Below are positions 186-9,586 of a stretch of 22,431 nt of DNA, piece by piece. Numbering within the stretch: the first letter of the stretch is position 1; each line of letters opens with the position of its first letter. The position numbers and the translations under genes are program-made. The DNA is from an uncultured Halobacteria archaeon (GTDB lineage Archaea; Halobacteriota; Syntropharchaeia; Alkanophagales; Methanospirareceae): contig CAYYNW010000011.1 in NCBI GenBank assembly GCA_964473145.1, positions 1-22,431 of the forward strand, given 5' to 3'. The notes beneath the pieces were generated by a model that made no database searches, was not told where the DNA came from, and saw nothing but the letters and a program-made list of their open reading frames with translations.

Positions 186-1542
186 CTATCTCCGATCCAC
201 GAGCCGTTTCGGCCTGCCCTTGACCTGGTAGAGCTCCAAGCCGCCAGGGCCGATGAAGTTGAAGATGATCTTGAACGAATTCTCGGCATACGCCTCGGCG
301 AGCCGCGGCTTGTACTGGAAGAAGGCTTTGAGGAAGTTCTCCTCCACTACTTTGCGATCAGATCGTTGAGGATCGAAGCACTCGACGCTCACGCGCATCA
401 CCGTCTCGCCTTCATCGTCACCGCCGTAGAGGAACGCTTCGTACTCGCCCGTGAGGTACTCCATGTTCTCGCGCTGGAAGACGCCGCGTTCGACGTCCAC
501 ACGGTTGAACGGCGTCTCGGCGACCCAGAAGGTCTCGGCCTCGCGCTGCGGGTTCAGTACCCTTACATGCGTTCTCCCACAGGGGCACCGGTCGCGTGTG
601 AGCACCACGGTCGTGTCCTCTGTATCGTAGTTGAGGAGGAGCGTGCCGCACTTCTCGCCCACCGGGAGGAGTGTGGAGCACGATGCGCCCGCATTCGCCC
701 TCGGGCACGAACCCGCCGAAGTGCGGATCGTACACATCCAGATGTACCAGGTCTTCAGGCACGTGGAGGCCCTTCAGCGCAGTGCATTCGCCACACATCG
801 TGCCCTCGGTGCTCCCGTAGGTATTGTAGACGTCACAGCCCCAGAGCTCCGCGAGGTATGCACGTGACTCATCGGCGAAACTCTCTCCACCGACCACGAG
901 CCGCTTGACGCTCGAGTCCTGTGGCGGGAGCTGCTCCAGCGTCATCCGCCGTGCGAGCCGCAGGAGTTTGAAGACACTGCCTACCAGGCCTGTGGGCTGG
1001 TACGATTTGAGGATCCGAACCGGGAAGGTGCATTTCCCTTCCGGGATGATGGTCATCCCGATCTTCTGTGCGGCGAGCGTCATTGTGTTCGCGCCCACAT
1101 TCATCCCGTAGGAGGCGCAGACCACGACGCGATCTCCGGGCCCGAAGCCCTGCGAGACGAAACTGCGTGCGTACTTCTCCGCGTACCGTTGCCAGTCCTC
1201 CCAGGAGAGGAAGAATGCCTTGGGCGTGCCGCTGGTCCCGCTCGTCTCGTGGAGCGTGAAGATCTCAGGCCAGTCGCGGCTCCGGAACTCGAACTCCGCA
1301 GTCTCCAGCGGCTGATGCTCGCGGATCGTCTGACCGGAGATAATGGGCAGTTCCTGCAGATCTTCGTGGGTTCGCACGTCGGCAGGTTGAATGCCGTGCT
1401 CACGGAACCACTTCTTATAGAACGGCGAATGCTCGTACGCGTAGTTGACCGTATAGCGGATGCGTTCGTCAACGAGCGCGTCGAGATCTCCTCGTTCCAT
1501 CGTCTCGATGGCTTCGTTAAAGAACCGTTTTCCGGAGTTCAT
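186..1542 (-). pseudogene. paaK: Phenylacetate-CoA ligase (PaaK / coenzyme F390 synthetase family), interrupted by a frameshift near 677-684
   Basis: ORF 418-1542 carries adenylate-forming motifs (HETSGTSGTPK, NTYGSTEG) up to ...GECGRIVL. Family-like sequence then continues in another frame in ORF 186-737 (STLLPVGEKCGTLLLNYDTEDTTVVLTRDRCPCGRTH...GRPKRLVD). The out-of-frame tail of the long ORF is Arg/Pro-rich nonsense. Confidence 0.8.
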
Positions 1543-1683: not shown

Positions 1684-3030
1684 GTGATCACGTTACGCTA
1701 CGAGAAAGGGACGCTCGCCGTTACGAGCAATTTCAAGCTGCCGCACACCGTATGGGATACGCGCTCGGGCGTTTACCGCTGCTTACCCCTCTTCTATCGA
1801 GAATTAACCGACTATTTGCAGCTCTCCCGGCTCGACTACGAAGACGACGTGCTTGATCTCCCACCGATGCCGCAGTTAACCGAAGCACTCAAGCTGCGTG
1901 ATTATCAAACCGAGGCGCTGCAGCGCTGGCTGCGCACGAACCAGGGCGTCCTGGTGCTGCCGACCGGCGCGGGAAAGACGATCATTGCGATAAAGGCAAT
2001 CGCAACGCTGAACGTCCCCACGCTGGTCGTCGTGCCAACCCTGGAGCTCGTGAAGCAGTGGCAGCGTGAGCTCGAAGCACGGTTAAACATAGAACCAGGC
2101 ACATACAGCGGCGAATCCCATATTCTGAAGCCGATAACCGTAGCAACCTACGATACCGCGTATCTGCGCGCCGAAGAGCTCGGGAACAAGTTCCTGCTCC
2201 TCGTCTTCGATGAGGTACACCATCTGCCCTCGCCCGGCTATTCCACTATCGCGGAGCTCTTCGTCGCCCCGTACCGGCTGGGCTTGACGGCCACGTACGA
2301 ACGCGAGGACGGCCGGCACACGGACCTGGAGCGGCTGGTCGGTGGTAAGATTTACGAGATAGGCGTTGAGAAACTAACCGGAAAGCACCTGGCGGAATAC
2401 ACGACACGGAAGATCGTTACTGACCTGACGGATGAGGAACGGGCGGAGTATGAGAAGCATTATGTGGTCTTCACCGATTTCCTCAAGACGAAACGGATCA
2501 TCCTGCGAACTCCACGGGACTTCCAACGGTTCGTCATGCGCACCGGGCGCGATCCGAAGGCGCGTGAAGCGCTGCTGGCACGGAATCGGGCGCGACAGAT
2601 CGCATTGAATTCACGCACCAAGTTGGATGCGCTCGCTAAGATTCTGACGGAGCATCCCGGTGACCGCACGATCATCTTCACCGAGCATAACTCGCTCGTC
2701 TACGCGATCTCCCGAGAGTTTTTGATACCCGCGATCACGCATACCACGCCGAAAGAGGAGCGGGCGGAGGTCCTCGAGAAGTTCCGGGCCGGGCAGTACC
2801 GGAGGATTGTCACCTCGAAGGTGCTGGAAGAGGGCATTGACGTGCCCGAGGCCTCGGTCGGGGTGATCCTGAGTGGCAGCGGGAGCAAACGCGAGTACAA
2901 GCAGCGGCTGGGCCGCATCTTGCGGAAGAAAGAGGGTAAACTGGCGATCCTCTATGAGATCGTCTCGAAAGGGACGACGGAGATCGGGATCTCGCGGAGG
3001 CGGAAGAGTACCGTGACTGATTCGTCTTAA
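1684..3030 (+). CDS. xpb: XPB (Rad25/ERCC3-type) SF2 DNA helicase
   Basis: 448-aa ORF with a GTG start. Walker A is VLPTGAGKT and motif II is FDEVHHL. GLTATYEREDGR contains the XPB-specific RED motif. C-terminal helicase motifs are VLEEGIDVPE and QRLGRILR. A Bax1 gene lies downstream. Confidence 0.9.
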   Translation: MITLRYEKGTLAVTSNFKLPHTVWDTRSGVYRCLPLFYRELTDYLQLSRLDYEDDVLDLPPMPQLTEALKLRDYQTEALQRWLRTNQGVLVLPTGAGKTIIAIKAIATLNVPTLVVVPTLELVKQWQRELEARLNIEPGTYSGESHILKPITVATYDTAYLRAEELGNKFLLLVFDEVHHLPSPGYSTIAELFVAPYRLGLTATYEREDGRHTDLERLVGGKIYEIGVEKLTGKHLAEYTTRKIVTDLTDEERAEYEKHYVVFTDFLKTKRIILRTPRDFQRFVMRTGRDPKAREALLARNRARQIALNSRTKLDALAKILTEHPGDRTIIFTEHNSLVYAISREFLIPAITHTTPKEERAEVLEKFRAGQYRRIVTSKVLEEGIDVPEASVGVILSGSGSKREYKQRLGRILRKKEGKLAILYEIVSKGTTEIGISRRRKSTVTDSS

Positions 3031-3033
3031 TCC

Positions 3034-3067
3034 GAAGCACGATTGACGTAAACTTTTAACGTGCTTC
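3034..3067 (+). terminator. Inverted repeat immediately after the xpb stop codon
   Basis: gaagcacg (3034-3041) and cgtgcttc (3060-3067) form a perfect 8-bp stem. The 18-nt loop contains cttttaa. Confidence 0.25.
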
Positions 3068-3084
3068 AGAACAAAGAAGAAATC

Positions 3085-3357
3085 ATGGAACTCATTTCGA
3101 TTCCCATTCTCATCAGCAAAGAAGGTACATGGTTTGTGGCATCGTGCCCGCTCCTTGACATAGGCACGCAGGGAAGGACCGAGGAAGAAGTGAAAGAGAA
3201 TATGGCGGATTTAATCGAAGAGTACCTAGAAGATCCCGACACAGCAAAACCTGACTTGGAGGCTATTTCGTCAACGTCAATCACTCTGACCTCCGTTCCC
3301 ATCAAGATACGAGGTGTTTATCGTGGCACTGGAACTTCGCCCGCTACCACAGCATGA
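3085..3357 (+). CDS. hicB: HicB-family (UPF0150) antitoxin-like protein
   Basis: MELISIPILISKEGTWFVASCPLLDIGTQGRTEEEVKENMADLIEEYLEDP matches the HicB N-terminal-domain pattern: beta strands, a G-x-T/S-x-E-E-A motif, then a helix ending in YLE. The ATG at 3085 is preferred over the GTG at 3061. The C-terminal tail looks atypical. Confidence 0.65.
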   Translation: MELISIPILISKEGTWFVASCPLLDIGTQGRTEEEVKENMADLIEEYLEDPDTAKPDLEAISSTSITLTSVPIKIRGVYRGTGTSPATTA

Positions 3358-3463
3358 GGTCATAAAAATCCTTGAAACGAACGGATTTAGCCGCGTCCGA
3401 TCACGAAAGCATATAGTATCTAAGAGGAGAGACACTGAAAAACAAACAATAAGGTATTTTTAA
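3323..3463 (+). pseudogene. hicA: HicA-like mRNA-interferase remnant, C-terminally truncated (46 codons)
   Basis: A small frame missing from the ORF track reads VALELRPLPQHEVIKILETNGFSRVRSRKHIVSKRRDTEKQTIRYF*. The EVIKILExxGF...R..(S)H(I)V pattern is HicA/YcfA-like. The roughly 25 C-terminal residues expected after the His region are absent. It overlaps the hicB 3' end by 35 nt. Confidence 0.4.
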
Positions 3464-3496
3464 AAAATGAGACACTATAAATAGGAGGTGATATGA

Positions 3497-4699
3497 ATGA
3501 GGTTCAGTGATGTCAAGCAATTATATTACATCACCCATGTCAGGAATGTCCCCTCCATACTGAAGCATGGCATCCTCTCTCATGAGCGTGTTGAAAGAGA
3601 GGGGTTAGAGTACCGTCCCATTTATGATGCCGAAATCGTTGGAAGGCGTAAAGAAATTCGGACACCTGATGGTAGAGATCTTTGGGATTTTGCCAATCTT
3701 TACTTCCAAGCCCGAAATGCGATGCTCTATCGCGTAGTGACCGAAAAGAGCGCTGATGAAATAGCGGTTCTCGCGGTCAACAGAGATATCCTTACCATAA
3801 AACGGCCGGATTTGTTTATCTCTACCGGTAATGCTGCAAGCGTAGGAAGTAATATCCTCCCTAAAAAAGAAGGGTTGGCCAATATTGACGCTAATGTCCT
3901 GACTATGGAATATTGGACGGTAGAGGATGGTTCAAAAAGAAAGATGATGGCTGAGTGTCTAGTTCCAGACAGCGTGCCATCTTCCTTAATTGAAACGATC
4001 TATGTAGCAAGTCACCGGGCTGCGGAGCAGGTGAAAGCGGAAGTACCCCAGACAAACATACCGATCATTCCTGAGCCGTATATGTTTTTCCAACCTTATA
4101 ATAAAATAGATCTCACTTCCAACCTTTCCCTTATCGAGGGAGATATGCTATTTTCTCGGCTGCATACACTTACCATAAGTGTGAACATTGTTGGCATCAT
4201 GGGGAAAGGACTTGCTTCGAGGGCGAAATATCAGTTTCCTGATGTTTATGTATTTTATCAAGACTTATGCCGAAAGAAAACCCTGCGAATGGGCAAGCCG
4301 TATCTTTATAAACGTGAATACGAATACTCATTCGATTATCAATTGGCAGACGACCCGTTAACCTTGTCCAATGCGAATTTGGAGACCTGGTTCCTCCTAT
4401 TTCCAACGAAACGCCACTGGCGCGAGCGGGGTGACATACATGGCATTGAGGAAGGATTGCAATGGCTTGTAGATAATTATAAAGGAGAAGGAATTAAATC
4501 ACTGGCGCTCCCAGCTCTTGGGTGTGGGCTTGGTTGGTTGGAGTGGCGTGAGGTAGGCCCGTTACTCTATAGATACCTTGCAACACTTGAGATCCCCGTT
4601 TGGATCTATTTACCCCGAGAGAGAAAGGTTCCTGACCAAGAACTTACAAAAGAGTTCTTAGAACGAGAAGGATTGGCTCGGTTCACTCGTGCCACGTGA
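3497..4699 (+). CDS. Fusion protein: N-terminal DarT-like (DUF4433) ADP-ribosyltransferase domain plus C-terminal DarG-like macrodomain
   Basis: Uninterrupted 400-aa ORF. A strong SD (ggaggtg, 3484-3490) lies 6 nt before the ATG. N-terminal landmarks: LYYITHVRNVPSILKHGILS, NLYFQARNAMLY, STGNAAS, KRKMMAECLVPD. C-terminal landmarks: NIVGIMGKGLA, LLFPTKRHWRE, LALPALGCGLGWLEW, VWIYLP. AT-richer than the flanks. Confidence 0.85.
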   Translation: MRFSDVKQLYYITHVRNVPSILKHGILSHERVEREGLEYRPIYDAEIVGRRKEIRTPDGRDLWDFANLYFQARNAMLYRVVTEKSADEIAVLAVNRDILTIKRPDLFISTGNAASVGSNILPKKEGLANIDANVLTMEYWTVEDGSKRKMMAECLVPDSVPSSLIETIYVASHRAAEQVKAEVPQTNIPIIPEPYMFFQPYNKIDLTSNLSLIEGDMLFSRLHTLTISVNIVGIMGKGLASRAKYQFPDVYVFYQDLCRKKTLRMGKPYLYKREYEYSFDYQLADDPLTLSNANLETWFLLFPTKRHWRERGDIHGIEEGLQWLVDNYKGEGIKSLALPALGCGLGWLEWREVGPLLYRYLATLEIPVWIYLPRERKVPDQELTKEFLEREGLARFTRAT

Positions 4700-4800
4700 A
4701 GAGAAGAAGATGGACGCCCAGGAAAGCAAATAAAGGGACCTCAAATGATCGGTGACGGCAAATTACGTGAGGCGCCTAGCACCCAGGTTAGGTAGGCACC

Positions 4801-6342
4801 ATGCTCCCCAGTGAACTCCTCATCACGCGGACGAAAAAGGACCGAATCCATCCGGATTTCCTGCAGGTGGATGCGGAGCAGCTGGAGCTGGCCGAGGAGC
4901 TCATCAGCGTGTACCAGCAGTTTGTGGGCACGAAGAAGGGCGAGCTCAACGATTTTATGGAAGAGTTCGAGCAGGGTCTGGAGTTCAAACGCATCCGCGG
5001 CTTGAGGACGCTGCTGGAGCGCCGGTGCACCTTCGTCTCGAAGCATGTAGTCGCGCCCGTAGAGGCACGGCGGGCGGTATTTCACGCGGCCAACGCTCAA
5101 AACGTGACGTCTCAAGCCGAGCGAATCGTGGTGATTACTGCTGTTGCGGGAGAACTGAACGTTTCCGCGAGTGATCTGGAGCAGTCGCTCTGGGCCGATC
5201 TGGACGCGGAAGTGTTCCTGGAGCAGTTTGAGCCGCTGAGGCCCGAGGAGTTGCTGCGGTGGTACAACCTCTCGTTAGCGCAGACGCTGCTCTTCAGGGC
5301 AACTGGTATGACCCTGACGATCATGGACCGTACGCCAGCGCTCTTCCGGGCGATCAAGTATTTCGGGCTGATGTATTTGCCCGAGGGCGGGCAGAAGATA
5401 CGGATCGAGGGCGCGCCGTCGTTACTCAAGCTGAGCGAGCGATACGGCACGGCGCTCGCCAAGCTGCTGCCCCTGATCGTCAGAAGTGGGAACTGGGCGC
5501 TCGACGCCGAGATCGTGGTTCGGAGGGAGAACACGCCGCGGATCTACCATTTTCTGCTGGACAGCCGCGATAAGCATGTGGTGACGAGCGACGAGGGAAA
5601 GGGGGAAGAGGTAACAACCACATTTGACAGCAGCGTCGAGCAGAAATTCTACACTGAGTTCGTCTCGTTACCGATCGCGCAGCGGTGGGAGCTTGTGCGC
5701 GAGCCGGATGTCATCGTAACGAAGGGGGGCGTGCTCATCCCGGACTTCAAATTCGTCCATAAAGAATTGAGCCTGGAGACGTATTTCGAGATCGTGGGCT
5801 TCTGGACCGAGGAATATCTCAAGCGGAAACTGGCGAAGATACGGGCATTGCCGTTCACGATGCTCGTGGCCATTGATAAAAGCTTAGCGTGCTTCAACTT
5901 CGAGCCCTTCGGGTTCGGGCTGGAGCAGCCGCTCATCCTCTACAGCAAGAAGGTGCCGGTTGGCGAGGTTGTCCAGTACTTAACGGCACTTGAACGAGAG
6001 GCAGTCACGAAGCAGGTGGCATCCCTGAAAGAGCAGGCAATAGAGCTTACAGGGGATATTATTCCGATTAAAGACCTGGCGAAGAGGTACGGGATGGGTC
6101 AGGATACCGTGCGAGCGAGCATGAAGGATCCGGAGTACGTGGTGTTCAAGGAGGTTTTCGTCAAGCAGAAGCTGCTGCGAAAAGTGAAGGAGAAGCTGGT
6201 GGCTGTCGAGAAGTACGTGGAGGCACGCAACATCATCGAGGAGGCAGGGCTAAGGAATGCGGATGAGGTGCTGGCGCACTTCGGATTCAGGGTGCAGTGG
6301 AAGGGGTTGGATCCAGGTGCGGCAACCATTACGCTTCAATAA
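4801..6342 (+). CDS. bax1: Bax1 (DUF790) nuclease, the partner of XPB
   Basis: 513-aa ORF. The N-terminus MLPSELLITRTKKDRIHPDFL is typical of Bax1. The nuclease region reads FDSSVEQKFYTEF...WELVREPDVIV...VLIPDFKF...YFEIVGFWTEEYLKRKL. It lies on the same strand as xpb. Confidence 0.9.
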   Translation: MLPSELLITRTKKDRIHPDFLQVDAEQLELAEELISVYQQFVGTKKGELNDFMEEFEQGLEFKRIRGLRTLLERRCTFVSKHVVAPVEARRAVFHAANAQNVTSQAERIVVITAVAGELNVSASDLEQSLWADLDAEVFLEQFEPLRPEELLRWYNLSLAQTLLFRATGMTLTIMDRTPALFRAIKYFGLMYLPEGGQKIRIEGAPSLLKLSERYGTALAKLLPLIVRSGNWALDAEIVVRRENTPRIYHFLLDSRDKHVVTSDEGKGEEVTTTFDSSVEQKFYTEFVSLPIAQRWELVREPDVIVTKGGVLIPDFKFVHKELSLETYFEIVGFWTEEYLKRKLAKIRALPFTMLVAIDKSLACFNFEPFGFGLEQPLILYSKKVPVGEVVQYLTALEREAVTKQVASLKEQAIELTGDIIPIKDLAKRYGMGQDTVRASMKDPEYVVFKEVFVKQKLLRKVKEKLVAVEKYVEARNIIEEAGLRNADEVLAHFGFRVQWKGLDPGAATITLQ

Positions 6343-6443
6343 GTGGTGTTAAACCTCAAAAAAATTCTAACTATGCGAGTAAGCAGCGCAAAGCGTCGGA
6401 GATACATGCACGTTCGACTTTAGCCGCTGGTTATGCATTCCTA

Positions 6444-6920
6444 TCAACCATTTACTGCCCCAAGCTTCCTATCAGTGATCTGCCTTATTATGGCAGTAGT
6501 CGACCCCCAGTCAATTTCAGATAATTTGTTTGTTTTTGGAATGTGTACCGTAAATTCTCTTTGATTTTCAGTATGATGATGCCTAACGTCTCTCAAAAAA
6601 ATCCAATACGCTTCGTTCTCTAACTCTACGTATTTTACGAGCATTACAACTGTCAAAAGACTACGAAGATAATTATATGTCGATATCTTTAATTGAATAG
6701 TTTCTTCGTTTTCATGCCCACTGCTATTTCGTGATGCTTTCAATTGGACAAGTAATTGCAATCCTTTTAGCTCTCCATTTTCCGCGATACCAATCTCGAA
6801 GTCTACGCCGTAATCATTTTGAGGCCGATTGACAGGCCAGCTTTGAGGTATATGATTACGTAAGAATGTTTCGGATTTCTGTTCAATGATATGCGTTTCA
6901 TGTCTGATTGGATATGGCAT
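6444..6920 (-). CDS. DUF4365 domain protein (restriction-endonuclease-like fold)
   Basis: 158-aa ORF. NDYGVDFEIGI...GELKGLQLLVQLKAS followed by ...VVMLVKYVELENEAYWIFL matches the DUF4365 pattern (DyGiD, a Q/E-x-K motif, then PvllV...ayW). An aggaag RBS-like motif lies about 9 nt upstream. Very AT-rich. Confidence 0.75.
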   Translation of the reverse strand: MPYPIRHETHIIEQKSETFLRNHIPQSWPVNRPQNDYGVDFEIGIAENGELKGLQLLVQLKASRNSSGHENEETIQLKISTYNYLRSLLTVVMLVKYVELENEAYWIFLRDVRHHHTENQREFTVHIPKTNKLSEIDWGSTTAIIRQITDRKLGAVNG

Positions 6921-7146
6921 CGTTAAGTCTTCCTAAAAGCATAACATTCACTTTTCCTCGCGGGTGCGGTATCTCCCTCCCTTCGGTCTCCGCGACTTCC
7001 AGCCACAGTTCGATAGCGATTTTAATCTCCCGTAACGCCGCCTCCTCTGTCTCGCCAAATGCCGAGCAGCCGGGTAACTCGGGCACCACCGCAATGTACC
7101 CTTCGTCCTCGTCACTATAGAAGATCTCGATCGCGTATTTAGACAT
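6898..7146 (-). CDS. hicB: HicB-family (UPF0150) antitoxin-like protein
   Basis: Taking the internal ATG at 7146 gives 82 aa: MSKYAIEIFYSDEDEGYIAVVPELPGCSAFGETEEAALREIKIAIELWLE. This is a textbook HicB N-terminal domain. The longer ORF extension (to 7284) is hydrophobic nonsense. The 3' end overlaps the DUF4365 start by 23 nt. Confidence 0.75.
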   Translation of the reverse strand: MSKYAIEIFYSDEDEGYIAVVPELPGCSAFGETEEAALREIKIAIELWLEVAETEGREIPHPRGKVNVMLLGRLNDAISNQT

Positions 7147-7206
7147 CGCTTTTCCCTCCACGTGAATGAAGAGCATAAAGGGATTTAAGAGTAAAAGAAG
7201 ATACGT

Positions 7207-7767
7207 ATGAGAAGGAAAGAAGTAAACATGGCAGAGCAAGTCGAGAGCGGCTTTCAGAGGGAGAAGTTTAAGCAGGTGCTCCATTACCTCATCTTCAAGT
7301 GCGGCTCGCTGGAGAACGTCGGGAAGACCGTGCTCTTCAAGCTCCTCTACTTCTCGGATTTCGATTACTACGAGCTCTACGAGGAGAAGTTAACCGATGA
7401 ATCGTATCGCAAGTTGGAGCACAGGCCCGCTCCGAGCCATTTTGACGACGCGGTGCGGGAACTCGAAGTCGAGGGCAAAATTGAAACGACGGTTGCGACA
7501 TTCGGAACGTTCGATCAGCAGAAATTTCTCCCCGTTAAAAAGCCATCGCTGGATCTGCTCACGGCAAATGAGCTCCAGGTCATCGAGAACGATATCGCGA
7601 AATACTGCAGCATGAACGCAAAACAGATAAGTGCATTTTCGCACAGAGACATACCATATAAAGCAACTGCTGAGGGCGATATTATCGACTACGAATTGGT
7701 ATTCTACAGAGACGTCCTGTTCTCTGTCCGAGAATACGAAGATGACCGAGTTCTTGCAGGTCGATGA
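7207..7767 (+). CDS. Panacea / DUF4065 (SocA-, GepA-like) antitoxin-domain protein
   Basis: FKQVLHYLIFKCGSLENVGKTVLFKLLYFSDFDYYELYEEKLTDESYRKLEHRPAP fits the DUF4065 pattern (KLlYf.D...g.plt...Y......GP.p). An alternative start is the ATG at 7228 (MAEQ...). It is divergent from the hicB/DUF4365 pair. Confidence 0.7.
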   Translation: MRRKEVNMAEQVESGFQREKFKQVLHYLIFKCGSLENVGKTVLFKLLYFSDFDYYELYEEKLTDESYRKLEHRPAPSHFDDAVRELEVEGKIETTVATFGTFDQQKFLPVKKPSLDLLTANELQVIENDIAKYCSMNAKQISAFSHRDIPYKATAEGDIIDYELVFYRDVLFSVREYEDDRVLAGR

Positions 7768-7846
7768 ATTCGCGAAGGACCTGAAAAAGTTGCGTAAAAA
7801 GTTCAGGAACATAGACCGCAAAACCTGCCAAAGCATCCAAAAGTGA
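7742..7846 (+). pseudogene. RelE/ParE-superfamily toxin N-terminal stub (34 codons)
   Basis: MTEFLQVDEFAKDLKKLRKKFRNIDRKTCQSIQK* resembles the N-terminal helix of RelE/HigB-like toxins (F.KDLKKL.KKyrsl..d). It overlaps the upstream gene by 26 nt, as a cognate toxin would. It stops about 60 residues short, just before the trm1 promoter region. Confidence 0.4.
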
Positions 7847-7879
7847 CTTTTAAGTGCGAAAACGTTATTCCACTATCCT

Positions 7880-9004
7880 ATGTTCACCGAACTCACCGAA
7901 GGCACCACCAGGATTTTAGTACCGAAGCAGCACCGTACCCGATCCATGTTCTACAATCCGAAGATGGAGCTCTGCCGCGACATTGACGTCGCGAGCATTG
8001 CCGTTTTCGCCGCCTCGTATCCTTCCCAACCGCTCAGTTATGTCGAAGCCCTTGCCGGCACCGGGGCCCGTGGCGTTCGCGTCGCCAACGAGGTCGGCCT
8101 CCGCGTTACGGTGAACGATCACAGCACGCCCGCCTTTGAGCTGATTCAGCACAATATCGCCTTGAACGGCGTAGAAGCGCGGGCAACGGCATCGCACGAG
8201 AACGCGAACGTGCTCTTACATCGAACTCCGTTTGACCTTGTGGATCTCGACCCCTTCGGCTCGCCCGTGCCATACCTCGATGCCGCTTCGCAGTCGGTAA
8301 AGAAGTTGCTGCTCGTCACGGCGACCGATACCGCGCCGCTCTGCGGGGCGCATACCGGCGGCCTCCGGAACTACGGCGCGCGACCACTGAACACGGAATA
8401 CCACGCGGAGCTGGGCACCCGCGTCCTCCTCGGCGCGGTCACCCGCGAGCTTGCCCGGCATGATAAGGCCGTCCAGCCGCTGCTCTCCTACGCCTCTGCA
8501 CATTTCATCCGGCTCATCATACGCATAGAGCACGGCGCGAAGAAGGCTGATGCGAGCATACAGCGGCTCGGGTTCATCGCGCACTGCTTCGCCTGCGGCC
8601 ATCGATTCGCCTTTCCGTACGCCGAACTGCTGGAGCAGTCCGTGACGACGACCTGCGCGCTCTGCGACCACCGGATGCGGCTCGCAGGTCCGCTGTACCT
8701 GCATCCGCTAAAGGTGCGTGAATTTTGCGAACGCGTGCACGAAGAAGTAGGACGGCGACCGCTGGGCACGAAGCGTGAGGCGTTGAAGATCCTCTTTACG
8801 GCCGGCCGCGAGCTGGACATACCCTTCTTCTACGAGCATCATGCGCTCTGCAAAGCACTGCGCATCCCGCCACCCCCAATCACCGCGCTCATCGACGCGC
8901 TACAGGAACGCGGCTTCTCAGCGAGTAGAACCCAATTCTCCGATACCGGGCTAAAGACGGACGCGCGGCTAGATGAGCTAAAAGCGCTGCTGGATAGGTT
9001 GTAA
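7880..9004 (+). CDS. trm1: tRNA (guanine26-N2)-dimethyltransferase Trm1
   Basis: FYNPKMELCRDI, SAM-site EALAGTGARGVRVANE, the signature DLDPFGSP, and a Cys4 cluster (CFACGH...CALCDH). Confidence 0.92.
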   Translation: MFTELTEGTTRILVPKQHRTRSMFYNPKMELCRDIDVASIAVFAASYPSQPLSYVEALAGTGARGVRVANEVGLRVTVNDHSTPAFELIQHNIALNGVEARATASHENANVLLHRTPFDLVDLDPFGSPVPYLDAASQSVKKLLLVTATDTAPLCGAHTGGLRNYGARPLNTEYHAELGTRVLLGAVTRELARHDKAVQPLLSYASAHFIRLIIRIEHGAKKADASIQRLGFIAHCFACGHRFAFPYAELLEQSVTTTCALCDHRMRLAGPLYLHPLKVREFCERVHEEVGRRPLGTKREALKILFTAGRELDIPFFYEHHALCKALRIPPPPITALIDALQERGFSASRTQFSDTGLKTDARLDELKALLDRL

Positions 9005-9579: not shown

Positions 9580-9586
9580 AAAGGAG

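What the first reader, a model, noticed from the sequence alone, without database searches (positions are those of the whole stretch)
3031..4800. XPB-Bax1 helicase/nuclease module split by a 1.77-kb AT-richer insertion carrying a DNA ADP-ribosylation gene
XPB and Bax1 form a complex and are normally encoded side by side. Here xpb ends at 3030 and bax1 starts at 4801 on the same strand. Between them lie hicB-like, hicA-remnant and DarT-macro genes.

Composition differs by hand count on sample 60-nt lines. The line at 3841 has 25 G+C (42%). The line at 8281 in trm1 has 38 G+C (63%). This suggests horizontally acquired DNA.

As far as I recall, bacterial DarT lesions on ssDNA thymidines are reported to be processed by nucleotide excision repair and recombination, and XPB-Bax1 is the archaeal NER-like bubble-opening and cutting pair. 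The juxtaposition could therefore be functional, with lesion writer, eraser and processing machinery together. It could equally be an insertion hotspot.
Basis: partly seen in the sequence, partly recalled or inferred. Interest (0 to 1): 0.6.

Follow-up and report, generated by a model that had tools for sequence, protein, structure and literature searches.

The report
DarT-macro cassette in xpb-bax1 hotspot
A bacterial-type gene that both writes and erases ADP-ribose on DNA has landed inside an older toxin-antitoxin pair lying between two archaeal repair genes, at a junction where relatives repeatedly carry such cassettes, so its position next to the repair genes looks accidental, not functional.

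Summary
The 1.77 kb between them has 45% G+C against 57-59% in the flanks, which puts it in the lowest ~2% of this genome.

- **Ancestral state.** In 12 relatives of the same family, xpb and bax1 overlap by 14 nt.
- **Hotspot.** In 12 other relatives the junction holds 0.4-2.5 kb of varied cargo: an intact hicBA pair, decayed hicB, a BrnT-like pair, or other genes.
- **This window.** A ~1.27-kb cassette sits inside hicA. It is a short AT-rich leader plus one ORF. Both halves of the split hicA are still visible.
- **The ORF.** It is a single-chain DarT plus DarG-type macrodomain protein, collinear with solved structure 7OMU. Catalytic residues of both domains are intact.
- **Origin.** Its nearest relatives outside this genus are bacterial, at 66-70% identity.
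- **Spread.** The same insertion junctions occur in one other species of the genus and in three metagenome contigs. Synonymous divergence of the cassette is far lower than that of xpb and bax1, so it spread among congeners.
- **No link to XPB-Bax1.** None of 79 fusion loci in other lineages has XPB or Bax1 within 6 kb.

Verdict: a nested horizontal insertion at a hotspot, and a new member of a known kind. A functional writer-eraser-repair module is not supported.

The parts
1684..3030 (+). xpb (448 aa). The last 7 codons after ...RRRK differ from the tail seen in relatives with the empty site.
   Evidence: Pfam XPB_DRD, ResIII, Helicase_C and ERCC3_RAD25_C. C-terminal tails compared.
3031..3070 (.). 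11-nt inverted repeat (3031-3041 / 3060-3070) flanking an AT-rich TTTTAA box, between the xpb stop and the hicB-like start. Possibly an operator or promoter of the TA pair.
   Evidence: Repeat I9. Relatives keep a palindrome at the same place with changes on both arms (sequences). Function is inferred only.
3085..3357 (+). hicB-like antitoxin-position gene (90 aa from the ATG at 3085; 98 aa from the GTG at 3061). Intact and under purifying selection.
   Evidence: 77-89% identical to the gene that overlaps a true hicA in relatives. pN/pS is about 0.2-0.26. No significant Pfam or PDB sequence hit. The AlphaFold model was unusable, pLDDT 43.
3323..3432 (+). 5' fragment of hicA. The open frame runs on to 3463 into insert DNA.
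   Evidence: Window 3034-3432 aligns at 83% with the hicB-hicA of G012 and G009, and homology stops at 3432. Weak HicA_toxin hit of 18.8 bits.
3433..4705 (+). Inserted cassette of about 1.27 kb (ends known to about 10 nt): a ~60-nt AT-rich leader with GGAGGTGA ahead of the ATG, plus one ORF. It has no integrase, transposase, tRNA, attC or terminal repeats.
   Evidence: Breakpoints. G+C 0.443, the lowest 1.6% of genome windows. Negative searches.
3497..4699 (+). Single-chain DarT-macro gene (400 aa).
   Evidence: Collinear with PDB 7OMU over residues 3-388, E 3.7e-141. 2526 homologues. pN/pS is about 0.17-0.25 among five copies.
3515..4090 (+). DarT ADP-ribosyltransferase domain (residues 7-198). 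H14, R51 and E153 are present.
   Evidence: Pfam DarT 161 bits. Alignment to Thermus DarT 7OMV and to 7OMU, where the aligned residue is Ala in the deposited chains. The three residues are 99-100% conserved in 120 homologues.
4130..4642 (+). DarG-type macrodomain (residues 212-382). N230, K237, K305 and W308 are present. There is no DarG C-terminal domain.
   Evidence: PADLOC DarG positions 4-154 of 329 and NCBIfam DarG positions 3-157 of 338. Alignment to TaqDarG macrodomain 5M31. Residue roles from PMC5179494. Conservation.
4706..4797 (+). Decayed 3' fragment of hicA, with a 17-19-nt deletion relative to G001 and to intact hicA.
   Evidence: Alignments with G001, L135, L136, L138 and intact hicA of G012.
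4801..6342 (+). bax1 (513 aa). It has lost its ancestral 14-nt overlap with xpb.
   Evidence: DUF790 378 bits. NCBIfam endonuclease Bax1. The overlap in relatives is shown.

Best explanation
The stretch is a two-layer horizontal insertion at a recombination hotspot. It is not part of the XPB-Bax1 machinery.

Layer 1. A small hicB-hicA toxin-antitoxin pair sits exactly at the point where xpb and bax1 ancestrally overlap by 14 nt. In this methanogen family that junction repeatedly holds small TA cassettes. These cassettes are swapped among lineages, most simply by homologous recombination through the conserved xpb and bax1 flanks. That route is inferred.

Layer 2. A compact ~1.27-kb cassette of bacterial type was inserted once into codon ~45 of hicA and killed that toxin gene. 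The composite then spread among species of this genus.

The cassette's single product carries a DarT domain and a DarG-type macrodomain in one chain. By homology, the DarT domain transfers ADP-ribose from NAD+ to thymidine in single-stranded DNA and the macrodomain removes it. The proposed mechanism is inferred, not shown. The macrodomain keeps the host chromosome clear of the modification at a fixed 1:1 dose. The transferase wins when the balance is upset, for example on abundant viral ssDNA or when the eraser is blocked. That would stall replication, as two-gene DarTG does in phage defence.

Shown here: the anatomy, the breakpoints, intact catalytic residues, purifying selection, foreign composition, and the lack of any association with XPB/Bax1 elsewhere.
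For: Empty site. xpb and bax1 overlap by 14 nt in 12 of the 27 family genomes that have both genes on one contig. Three have 47-174-nt spacers. Twelve have 0.4-2.5-kb inserts with at least five kinds of cargo.

Breakpoints. Homology to intact hicBA ends at 3432 and resumes near 4706. All five DarT-bearing loci (G000, G001, L135, L136, L138) share both junctions.

Foreign composition. The insert has G+C 0.443, the lowest 1.6% of the genome. Its GC3 is 0.40-0.45 in every host, although host GC3 ranges 0.53-0.83.

Later spread, shown by the proportion of synonymous sites that differ (pS).
- G000 vs G001: 0.33 for the cassette against 0.70 (xpb) and 0.73 (bax1).
- G001 vs L136: 0.126 against 0.61 and 0.55.
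- The same pattern holds for other cassettes at this junction. hicBA in G005 vs G068 gives 0.28/0.25 against 0.59/0.63. The BrnT-like pair in G020 vs G081 gives 0.05/0.14 against 0.40/0.35.

Bacterial source. The best hits outside the genus are 66-70% identical and lie in bacterial contexts. In the tree the G000+G001 pair (support 99) is nested among bacteria, and the other archaeal copies are scattered.

Protein. It is collinear with 7OMU. H14, R51, E153, N230, K237, K305 and W308 are conserved. pN/pS is about 0.17-0.25.

No functional link. 0 of 79 loci in other lineages have XPB or Bax1 within 6 kb. There is no conserved neighbour of any kind. G076 carries the fusion on a different contig from xpb-bax1.
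Against: - The route of the original insertion is unknown. No integrase, transposase, attC, target duplication or terminal repeats were found.
- Synonymous divergence of the flanks is near saturation and is inflated by GC3 drift between hosts, so the size of the contrast is uncertain. The G020-G081 pair, where both hosts are AT-rich, shows the same contrast.
- hicB has stayed intact and constrained next to the cassette, which could hint at a new partnership.
- The survey for XPB/Bax1 neighbours covered mostly bacteria, which rarely have these genes. Only 6 independent archaeal loci could speak to the question.
Confidence: 0.85

Rival explanations
1. Functional module. The DarT-macro gene was retained between xpb and bax1 because XPB-Bax1 processes ADP-ribosyl-thymidine lesions, so that writer, eraser and excision machinery are co-expressed as one unit.
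For: All four genes lie on one strand with short gaps and no terminator-like site on the + strand between 4143 and bax1. In E. coli, DarT lesions are removed by RecF recombination followed by UvrABC excision repair (PMC7003065). The cassette has been kept intact under purifying selection at this site in five lineages.
Against: All five occurrences derive from one insertion into hicA. 0 of 79 other loci, and 0 of 6 other archaeal loci, have XPB or Bax1 within 6 kb. G076 has the fusion away from xpb-bax1. The junction holds unrelated cargo in many relatives. The insertion destroys the 14-nt xpb/bax1 overlap instead of building on it. The protein carries its own eraser.
Confidence: 0.05
2. Toxin swap. 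After hicA was destroyed, hicB and the DarT-macro gene became a new working pair, with HicB regulating transcription of the cassette or neutralising the fusion protein.
For: hicB stays intact with pN/pS about 0.2-0.26 in all DarT-bearing lineages, while the hicA pieces decay. A palindrome around an AT-rich box precedes hicB. One bacterial lineage also has a HicB-type gene upstream of its fusion gene.
Against: hicB is also kept alone, without hicA and without DarT, in G004, so its retention does not need the cassette. In the bacterial case the adjacent hicA is intact and separate. Of 60 small upstream ORFs taken from these fusion loci (plus the added locus L131), only one matches UPF0150/HicB. 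The fusion already contains its own antidote. This 90-aa HicB-like protein shows no recognisable DNA-binding domain.
Confidence: 0.08
3. The three genes are an old, vertically inherited part of the locus, and relatives with abutting xpb-bax1 have lost them.
For: hicB-type genes occur at this junction in five genera of the family. One clade of four species all carry hicB or its remnants.
Against: The empty site is an identical 14-nt overlap in at least six genera, which precise deletions would not restore. G005, which has hicBA, is sister to G011, which is empty, with support 100/97. Cassette synonymous divergence is well below that of the flanks. Composition is foreign in every host. The DarT-macro gene is found in 3 of 66 family genomes.
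Confidence: 0.02

Closest known systems
Single-chain DarT-macrodomain ('DarTG fusion') protein, PDB 7OMU. It has a consecutive accession with the Thermus DarT structures 7OMV-7ON0. From memory it is the Thermosipho africanus protein of Schuller et al. 2021, a paper not held in the library.
   Same: Same architecture and length. The match is collinear over residues 3-388 with E 3.7e-141. The same catalytic positions are present. Like the window protein, it has no DarG C-terminal domain.
   Different: The host is an uncultured McrA-encoding archaeon, not a bacterium. The window copy keeps Glu153 where the deposited chain has Ala. Its genomic setting, nested in a hicA gene between xpb and bax1, is particular to this genus.
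Two-gene DarTG2 toxin-antitoxin and phage-defence system (Thermus aquaticus, M. tuberculosis, EPEC; PMC5179494, PMC7003065).
   Same: A DarT fold with the conserved Arg and catalytic Glu. A DarG macrodomain with the catalytic Lys in an FPTK-HW motif. By homology, reversible ADP-ribosylation of thymidine in ssDNA.
   Different: Here it is one polypeptide, not two genes. The C-terminal half of DarG, implicated in binding DarT because only full-length DarG inhibits it non-enzymatically (PMC5179494), is absent. Control by differential antitoxin stability cannot work in the usual way.
HicAB type II toxin-antitoxin pairs.
   Same: Two small overlapping genes. The toxin in relatives is a bona fide HicA_toxin (42.3 bits).
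   Different: The gene order is antitoxin first. The antitoxin-position protein matches no HicB/UPF0150 profile. In the window the toxin gene is split and dead.
Defence and TA 'hotspots' between conserved core genes in bacterial genomes (for example the Acinetobacter hotspot survey, PMC11723918, seen).
   Same: A fixed position between two conserved genes, variable small cargo, cargo of foreign composition, and no mobility genes inside the islet.
   Different: Here the site is the overlap between two translationally coupled genes of one operon in methanogenic archaea. The cargo is mainly TA pairs.
Archaeal XPB-Bax1 helicase-nuclease operon (He et al. 2020, PMC7672443, cited).
   Same: Both genes are present, intact and on one strand.
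   Different: They are separated by 1770 nt, not adjacent or overlapping.

Membership tests
DarT ADP-ribosyltransferase (Pfam PF14487) | Domain match above the curated cut-off | tested here: met
   161.4 bits against a cut-off of 22.5, residues 10-193. PADLOC DarT 2.6e-40.
DarT ADP-ribosyltransferase (Pfam PF14487) | Catalytic Glu (E160 of Thermus DarT) and Arg51 equivalent, plus the His of the ITH motif | tested here: met
   E153, R51 and H14 align to those positions in 7OMV and 7OMU. They are 99-100% conserved in 120 homologues. The roles of the residues are from my memory of Schuller et al. 2021.
DarT ADP-ribosyltransferase (Pfam PF14487) | ADP-ribosylation of thymidine in ssDNA, and toxicity when unopposed | not testable with these tools
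   Needs expression and an in vitro assay.
DarG-type macrodomain | Macrodomain with the catalytic Lys (K80 of TaqDarG) and the N22, K29 and W83 equivalents | tested here: met
   K305, N230, K237 and W308 align to 5M31. Roles from PMC5179494. They are 99-100% conserved.
Canonical two-gene DarTG system | Separate toxin and antitoxin genes, with a full-length DarG that has the C-terminal DarT-binding half | tested here: not met
   A single 400-aa ORF. The DarG profiles are matched only over positions 4-154 of 329 and 3-157 of 338. NCBIfam scores are below both equivalog cut-offs.
Single-chain DarT-macro fusion (7OMU type) | Collinear full-length similarity to the solved fusion protein | tested here: met
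   Residues 3-388 against 20-403 of a 406-aa chain, E 3.7e-141.
HicAB toxin-antitoxin | HicA_toxin domain above the cut-off | tested here: not met
   The window stub scores 18.8 bits, below 27, and is truncated. The intact orthologue in G012 scores 42.3 bits.
HicAB toxin-antitoxin | HicB/UPF0150 antitoxin domain | tested here: inconclusive
   No Pfam hit at E<=0.01. Weak PHD_like hits at 0.0014-0.017. No PDB sequence hit. The model had pLDDT 43.
XPB-Bax1 operon | XPB helicase with damage-recognition domain and a DUF790 nuclease, adjacent on one strand | tested here: not met
   Both proteins qualify, but they lie 1770 nt apart. Adjacency with a 14-nt overlap is met in 12 relatives.
Integron-type gene cassette | attC site (RYYYAAC ... 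GTTRRRY with complementary cores) downstream of the ORF | tested here: not met
   0 of 80 fusion loci have such a pair within -60 to +220 nt of the stop codon. Control windows gave 14 of 5512. This was a simple core-motif test, not a covariance model.
Integrative island or transposon | Integrase or transposase, tRNA target, and terminal or direct repeats | tested here: not met
   There is no such ORF between 3031 and 4800. The nearest tRNA is at 9586. Only chance-level repeats flank the insert.

The most novel reading that the evidence does not exclude
The xpb|bax1 overlap is a dedicated landing pad where toxin-antitoxin and defence cassettes are exchanged among methanogen lineages. bax1 is also bracketed by a second variable islet carrying a DUF4365 nuclease, HicB and a Panacea-domain protein, and in a relative a restriction-type nuclease. 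On this reading, XPB-Bax1 in these archaea would itself belong to a conflict or defence island. It would be a helicase-nuclease acting on foreign or modified DNA, not a housekeeping excision-repair pair. The DarT-macro cassette would then be one of its neighbours by more than accident.
Probability: 0.1. Interest if true: 0.6.

Novelty: new member of a known kind. Interest (0 to 1): 0.3.

Why it matters
- It settles a tempting reading. A DNA-lesion writer/eraser sitting between the two genes of the archaeal excision-like pair is a product of where cassettes land, not of shared function.
- It documents cross-domain transfer of the single-chain DarT-macro module into a methanogen lineage, and its later spread among congeners.
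- It shows that the junction of two overlapping operon genes can act as a long-lived exchange site for toxin-antitoxin cassettes.
- It warns against guilt-by-association inference at such sites.
- It offers a natural series (empty, hicBA, decayed hicB, hicA::DarT-macro) for studying how TA cassettes replace one another.

Tried and rejected
- **Conserved partner genes of the fusion.** Clustering of neighbours within 3 kb in 80 loci gave no family shared by more than 4 loci. A Pfam scan of 60 small upstream ORFs gave no recurrent family.
No attC-like core pair was found in 0 of 80 loci.
- **Mobile-element ends.** No convincing target duplication or terminal inverted repeat was found. The 23-nt, 74% inverted repeat flanking the insert lies in the hicA pieces and is at chance level. 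There is no conserved leader upstream of the gene across loci.
- **tRNA or structured RNA at the site.** None found.
- **Fold assignment of the HicB-like protein.** The AlphaFold model from 7 sequences had pLDDT 43, so no fold search was run. The profile search against PDB found nothing.
- **Schuller et al. 2021**, the paper behind 7OMU, is not held. Statements about it rest on memory and on the PDB match.
- **Organism name.** This could not be established. The genome encodes McrA. A same-genus MAG is deposited as 'uncultured Halobacteria archaeon'. The cluster look-up gave no organism.
- **Assembly chimera.** Rejected, because five independent assemblies show the same order.
Full report
**What is there.** The window is a whole 22.4-kb contig of a 1.59-Mb, 92.7%-complete archaeal MAG that encodes McrA.

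- xpb is 1684-3030 and carries XPB_DRD, ResIII and Helicase_C domains.
- bax1 is 4801-6342 (DUF790 4.8e-113; NCBIfam endonuclease Bax1). It lies on the same strand, 1770 nt away.
- Between them lie a 90-aa ORF (3085-3357), a 46-aa frame with a weak HicA match (3323-3463), and a 400-aa ORF (3497-4699). The last has a DarT domain (3e-47) and a macrodomain.

The stretch has 45.3% G+C, against 58.6% for xpb and 57.4% for bax1. Only 2.3% of 1.2-kb windows of the genome are as low.

**The ancestral state and the hotspot.** I searched the 66 genomes held for this family with XPB and Bax1 and read the junctions. Both genes are on one contig in 27 genomes.

- In 12 genomes from at least six genera, xpb and bax1 overlap by the same 14 nt. 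This is the layout of a translationally coupled pair.
- Three genomes have 47-174-nt spacers.
- Twelve genomes have inserts of 0.4-2.5 kb at exactly this point, right after the codons for ...RRRK of XPB and right before the bax1 ATG.

The cargo of those twelve inserts varies.

- An intact pair of the 90-aa gene plus a 77-aa true HicA (G005, G009, G068; HicA_toxin 42.3 bits).
- The 90-aa gene with a truncated or missing hicA (G078, G004).
- Remnants of that gene plus other genes: a membrane protein, a lipoprotein with a glyoxalase-family protein, or a decayed flavin oxidoreductase (G003, G012, G041).
- An unrelated BrnT-like pair (G020, G081).
- The arrangement of the window (G000, G001).

On a Bax1 tree, G005 (hicBA) is sister to G011 (empty) with support 100/97. 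Presence is therefore patchy.

**The DarT-macro gene is a nested insertion in hicA.** Window 3034-3432 aligns at 83% with the hicB-hicA of G012 and G009, and homology then stops. It resumes weakly about 90 nt before bax1, where G001 still shows a recognisable hicA 3' end.

The insert is about 1.27 kb (3433 to about 4705). It comprises a ~60-nt AT-rich leader with GGAGGTGA ahead of the start codon, and one ORF. The same two junctions occur in G001 and in three metagenome contigs that also read xpb, 98-aa gene, DarT-macro, DUF790. All of these copies therefore go back to one insertion event.

Nothing marks a mobile element. I found no integrase, transposase, tRNA, Rfam element, attC-like site or convincing terminal repeat.

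**Foreign origin and later spread.** The protein has 2526 homologues. Nearly all of those listed are about 390 aa and 55-70% identical.

- The best 80 genomic loci are mostly bacterial: Chloroflexota, Acidobacteriota, Ignavibacteriota, Planctomycetota and many others. A few archaeal loci are scattered among them.
- In the tree the G000+G001 pair (support 99) is nested among bacteria and does not join the other archaeal copies.
- The closest hits outside the genus (70% and 67%) lie among bacterial housekeeping genes.

Within the genus I compared the proportion of synonymous sites that differ.

| Pair | Cassette | xpb | bax1 |
|---|---|---|---|
| G000 vs G001 | 0.33 | 0.70 | 0.73 |
| G001 vs L136 | 0.126 | 0.61 | 0.55 |
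| G000 vs L135 (close pair) | 0.33 | 0.40 | 0.35 |

In the close pair the cassette matches its flanks. The cassette's GC3 is 0.40-0.45 in every host, although host GC3 ranges from 0.53 to 0.83.

The other cassettes at the junction behave alike. hicBA in G005 vs G068 gives 0.28/0.25 against 0.59/0.63. The BrnT-like pair in G020 vs G081 gives 0.05/0.14 against 0.40/0.35. The simplest reading is that cassettes are passed among related lineages into the same site by recombination through the conserved flanks. That route is inferred, not shown. GC3 drift inflates the flank values, but the AT-rich pair G020-G081 shows the same contrast.

**What the protein is.** It is collinear over residues 3-388 with the 406-aa chain of PDB 7OMU (E 3.7e-141). 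It also matches the DarG macrodomains 5M31 and 5M3I and the Thermus DarT 7OMV separately.

- It matches thymidine-specific Thermus DarT (1e-10) far better than E. coli DarT1 (0.03).
- Only the macrodomain half of DarG is present (profile positions 4-154 of 329).
- H14, R51 and E153 of the transferase are present and 99-100% conserved among 120 homologues. So are N230, K237, K305 and W308 of the macrodomain, which correspond to N22, K29, K80 and W83 of TaqDarG.
- pN/pS among the five copies is about 0.17-0.25.

The gene is therefore functional and both activities are predicted to be intact. Activity itself was not tested.

**No link to XPB-Bax1.** Among the 80 loci, XPB and Bax1 occur within 6 kb only in the same-genus locus. 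The fusion has no conserved neighbour at all. In the family it is found in 3 of 66 genomes. The third, G076, has it on a different contig from its xpb-bax1, which are 89 nt apart.

**Comparison with known systems and verdict.** The single-chain DarT-macro protein is a known type with a solved structure. TA cassettes in hotspots between conserved genes are a known pattern. Three things are new: the host (a methanogen lineage), the nested hicA::DarT-macro architecture, and the finding that the xpb|bax1 overlap is a recurrent exchange site for TA cassettes across a family. This is a new member of a known kind, of modest interest. The functional-module reading is not supported, and I give it about 5%.

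**Limits.** No expression data could be obtained. The paper behind 7OMU is not in the library. The antitoxin-position gene could not be assigned to HicB by any profile or model.

Noticed in passing
window 3031-3070; relatives: An 11-nt inverted repeat flanks an AT-rich TTTAAA-type box just upstream of the hicB-like gene. Relatives keep a palindrome at the same place but with different arm sequences (AAGCAC/GTGCTT in some, TAGGGCA/TGCCTAA or TAGGACA/TGTCTAA in others). This looks like an operator over the cassette's own promoter.
   Followed up: partly
window 6343-7879; L136 8860-11455: The stretch between bax1 and trm1 is a second variable islet. In the window it holds DUF4365, a HicB-like gene and a Panacea-domain gene. 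In a metagenome relative the same interval holds a GNAT acetyltransferase, an NmeDI_C restriction-type protein and an intact hicAB pair. G004 and G003 share the SocA and HicB genes.
   Followed up: partly
G010:C50:29058-29291, G075:C29:8317-8556; also G007, G005, G014, G021: Stand-alone copies of the last ~60-80 residues of Bax1 (56-71% identical) occur about 1 kb downstream of bax1 or elsewhere in several relatives. They may be partial duplications or leftovers of recombination at this locus.
   Followed up: no
family genomes of genera g10 and g5; L018: In all six g10 genomes and in three of four g5 genomes with both genes, xpb and bax1 lie on different contigs. In G024, bax1 is directly preceded by an unrelated 436-aa gene. 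The pair therefore seems truly unlinked in some genera.
   Followed up: no
G043:C235:18251-19445: xpb matches in two overlapping pieces in different frames just upstream of bax1. This is a likely frameshift in xpb or an assembly error.
   Followed up: no
L131 4392-4830: A bacterial MAG has an intact hicB-hicA pair about 190 nt upstream of its DarT-macro gene. Its HicA has Tyr where the conserved His of the GSxH motif is expected. The adjacency of the two TA types looks coincidental.
   Followed up: partly
window 186-1542 (- strand); L032 2950-4067: The AMP-binding (PaaK-like) gene upstream of xpb is covered by two overlapping ORFs (186-737 and 418-1542). It aligns to the G001 copy in two frames, which is consistent with a frameshift.
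   Followed up: no
L099 and L107 (tree): One Nitrosopumilus MAG carries two nearly identical DarT-macro loci with identical neighbours on two contigs, one of 1.86 Mb and one of 41 kb. This is either a recent duplication or an assembly redundancy.
   Followed up: no
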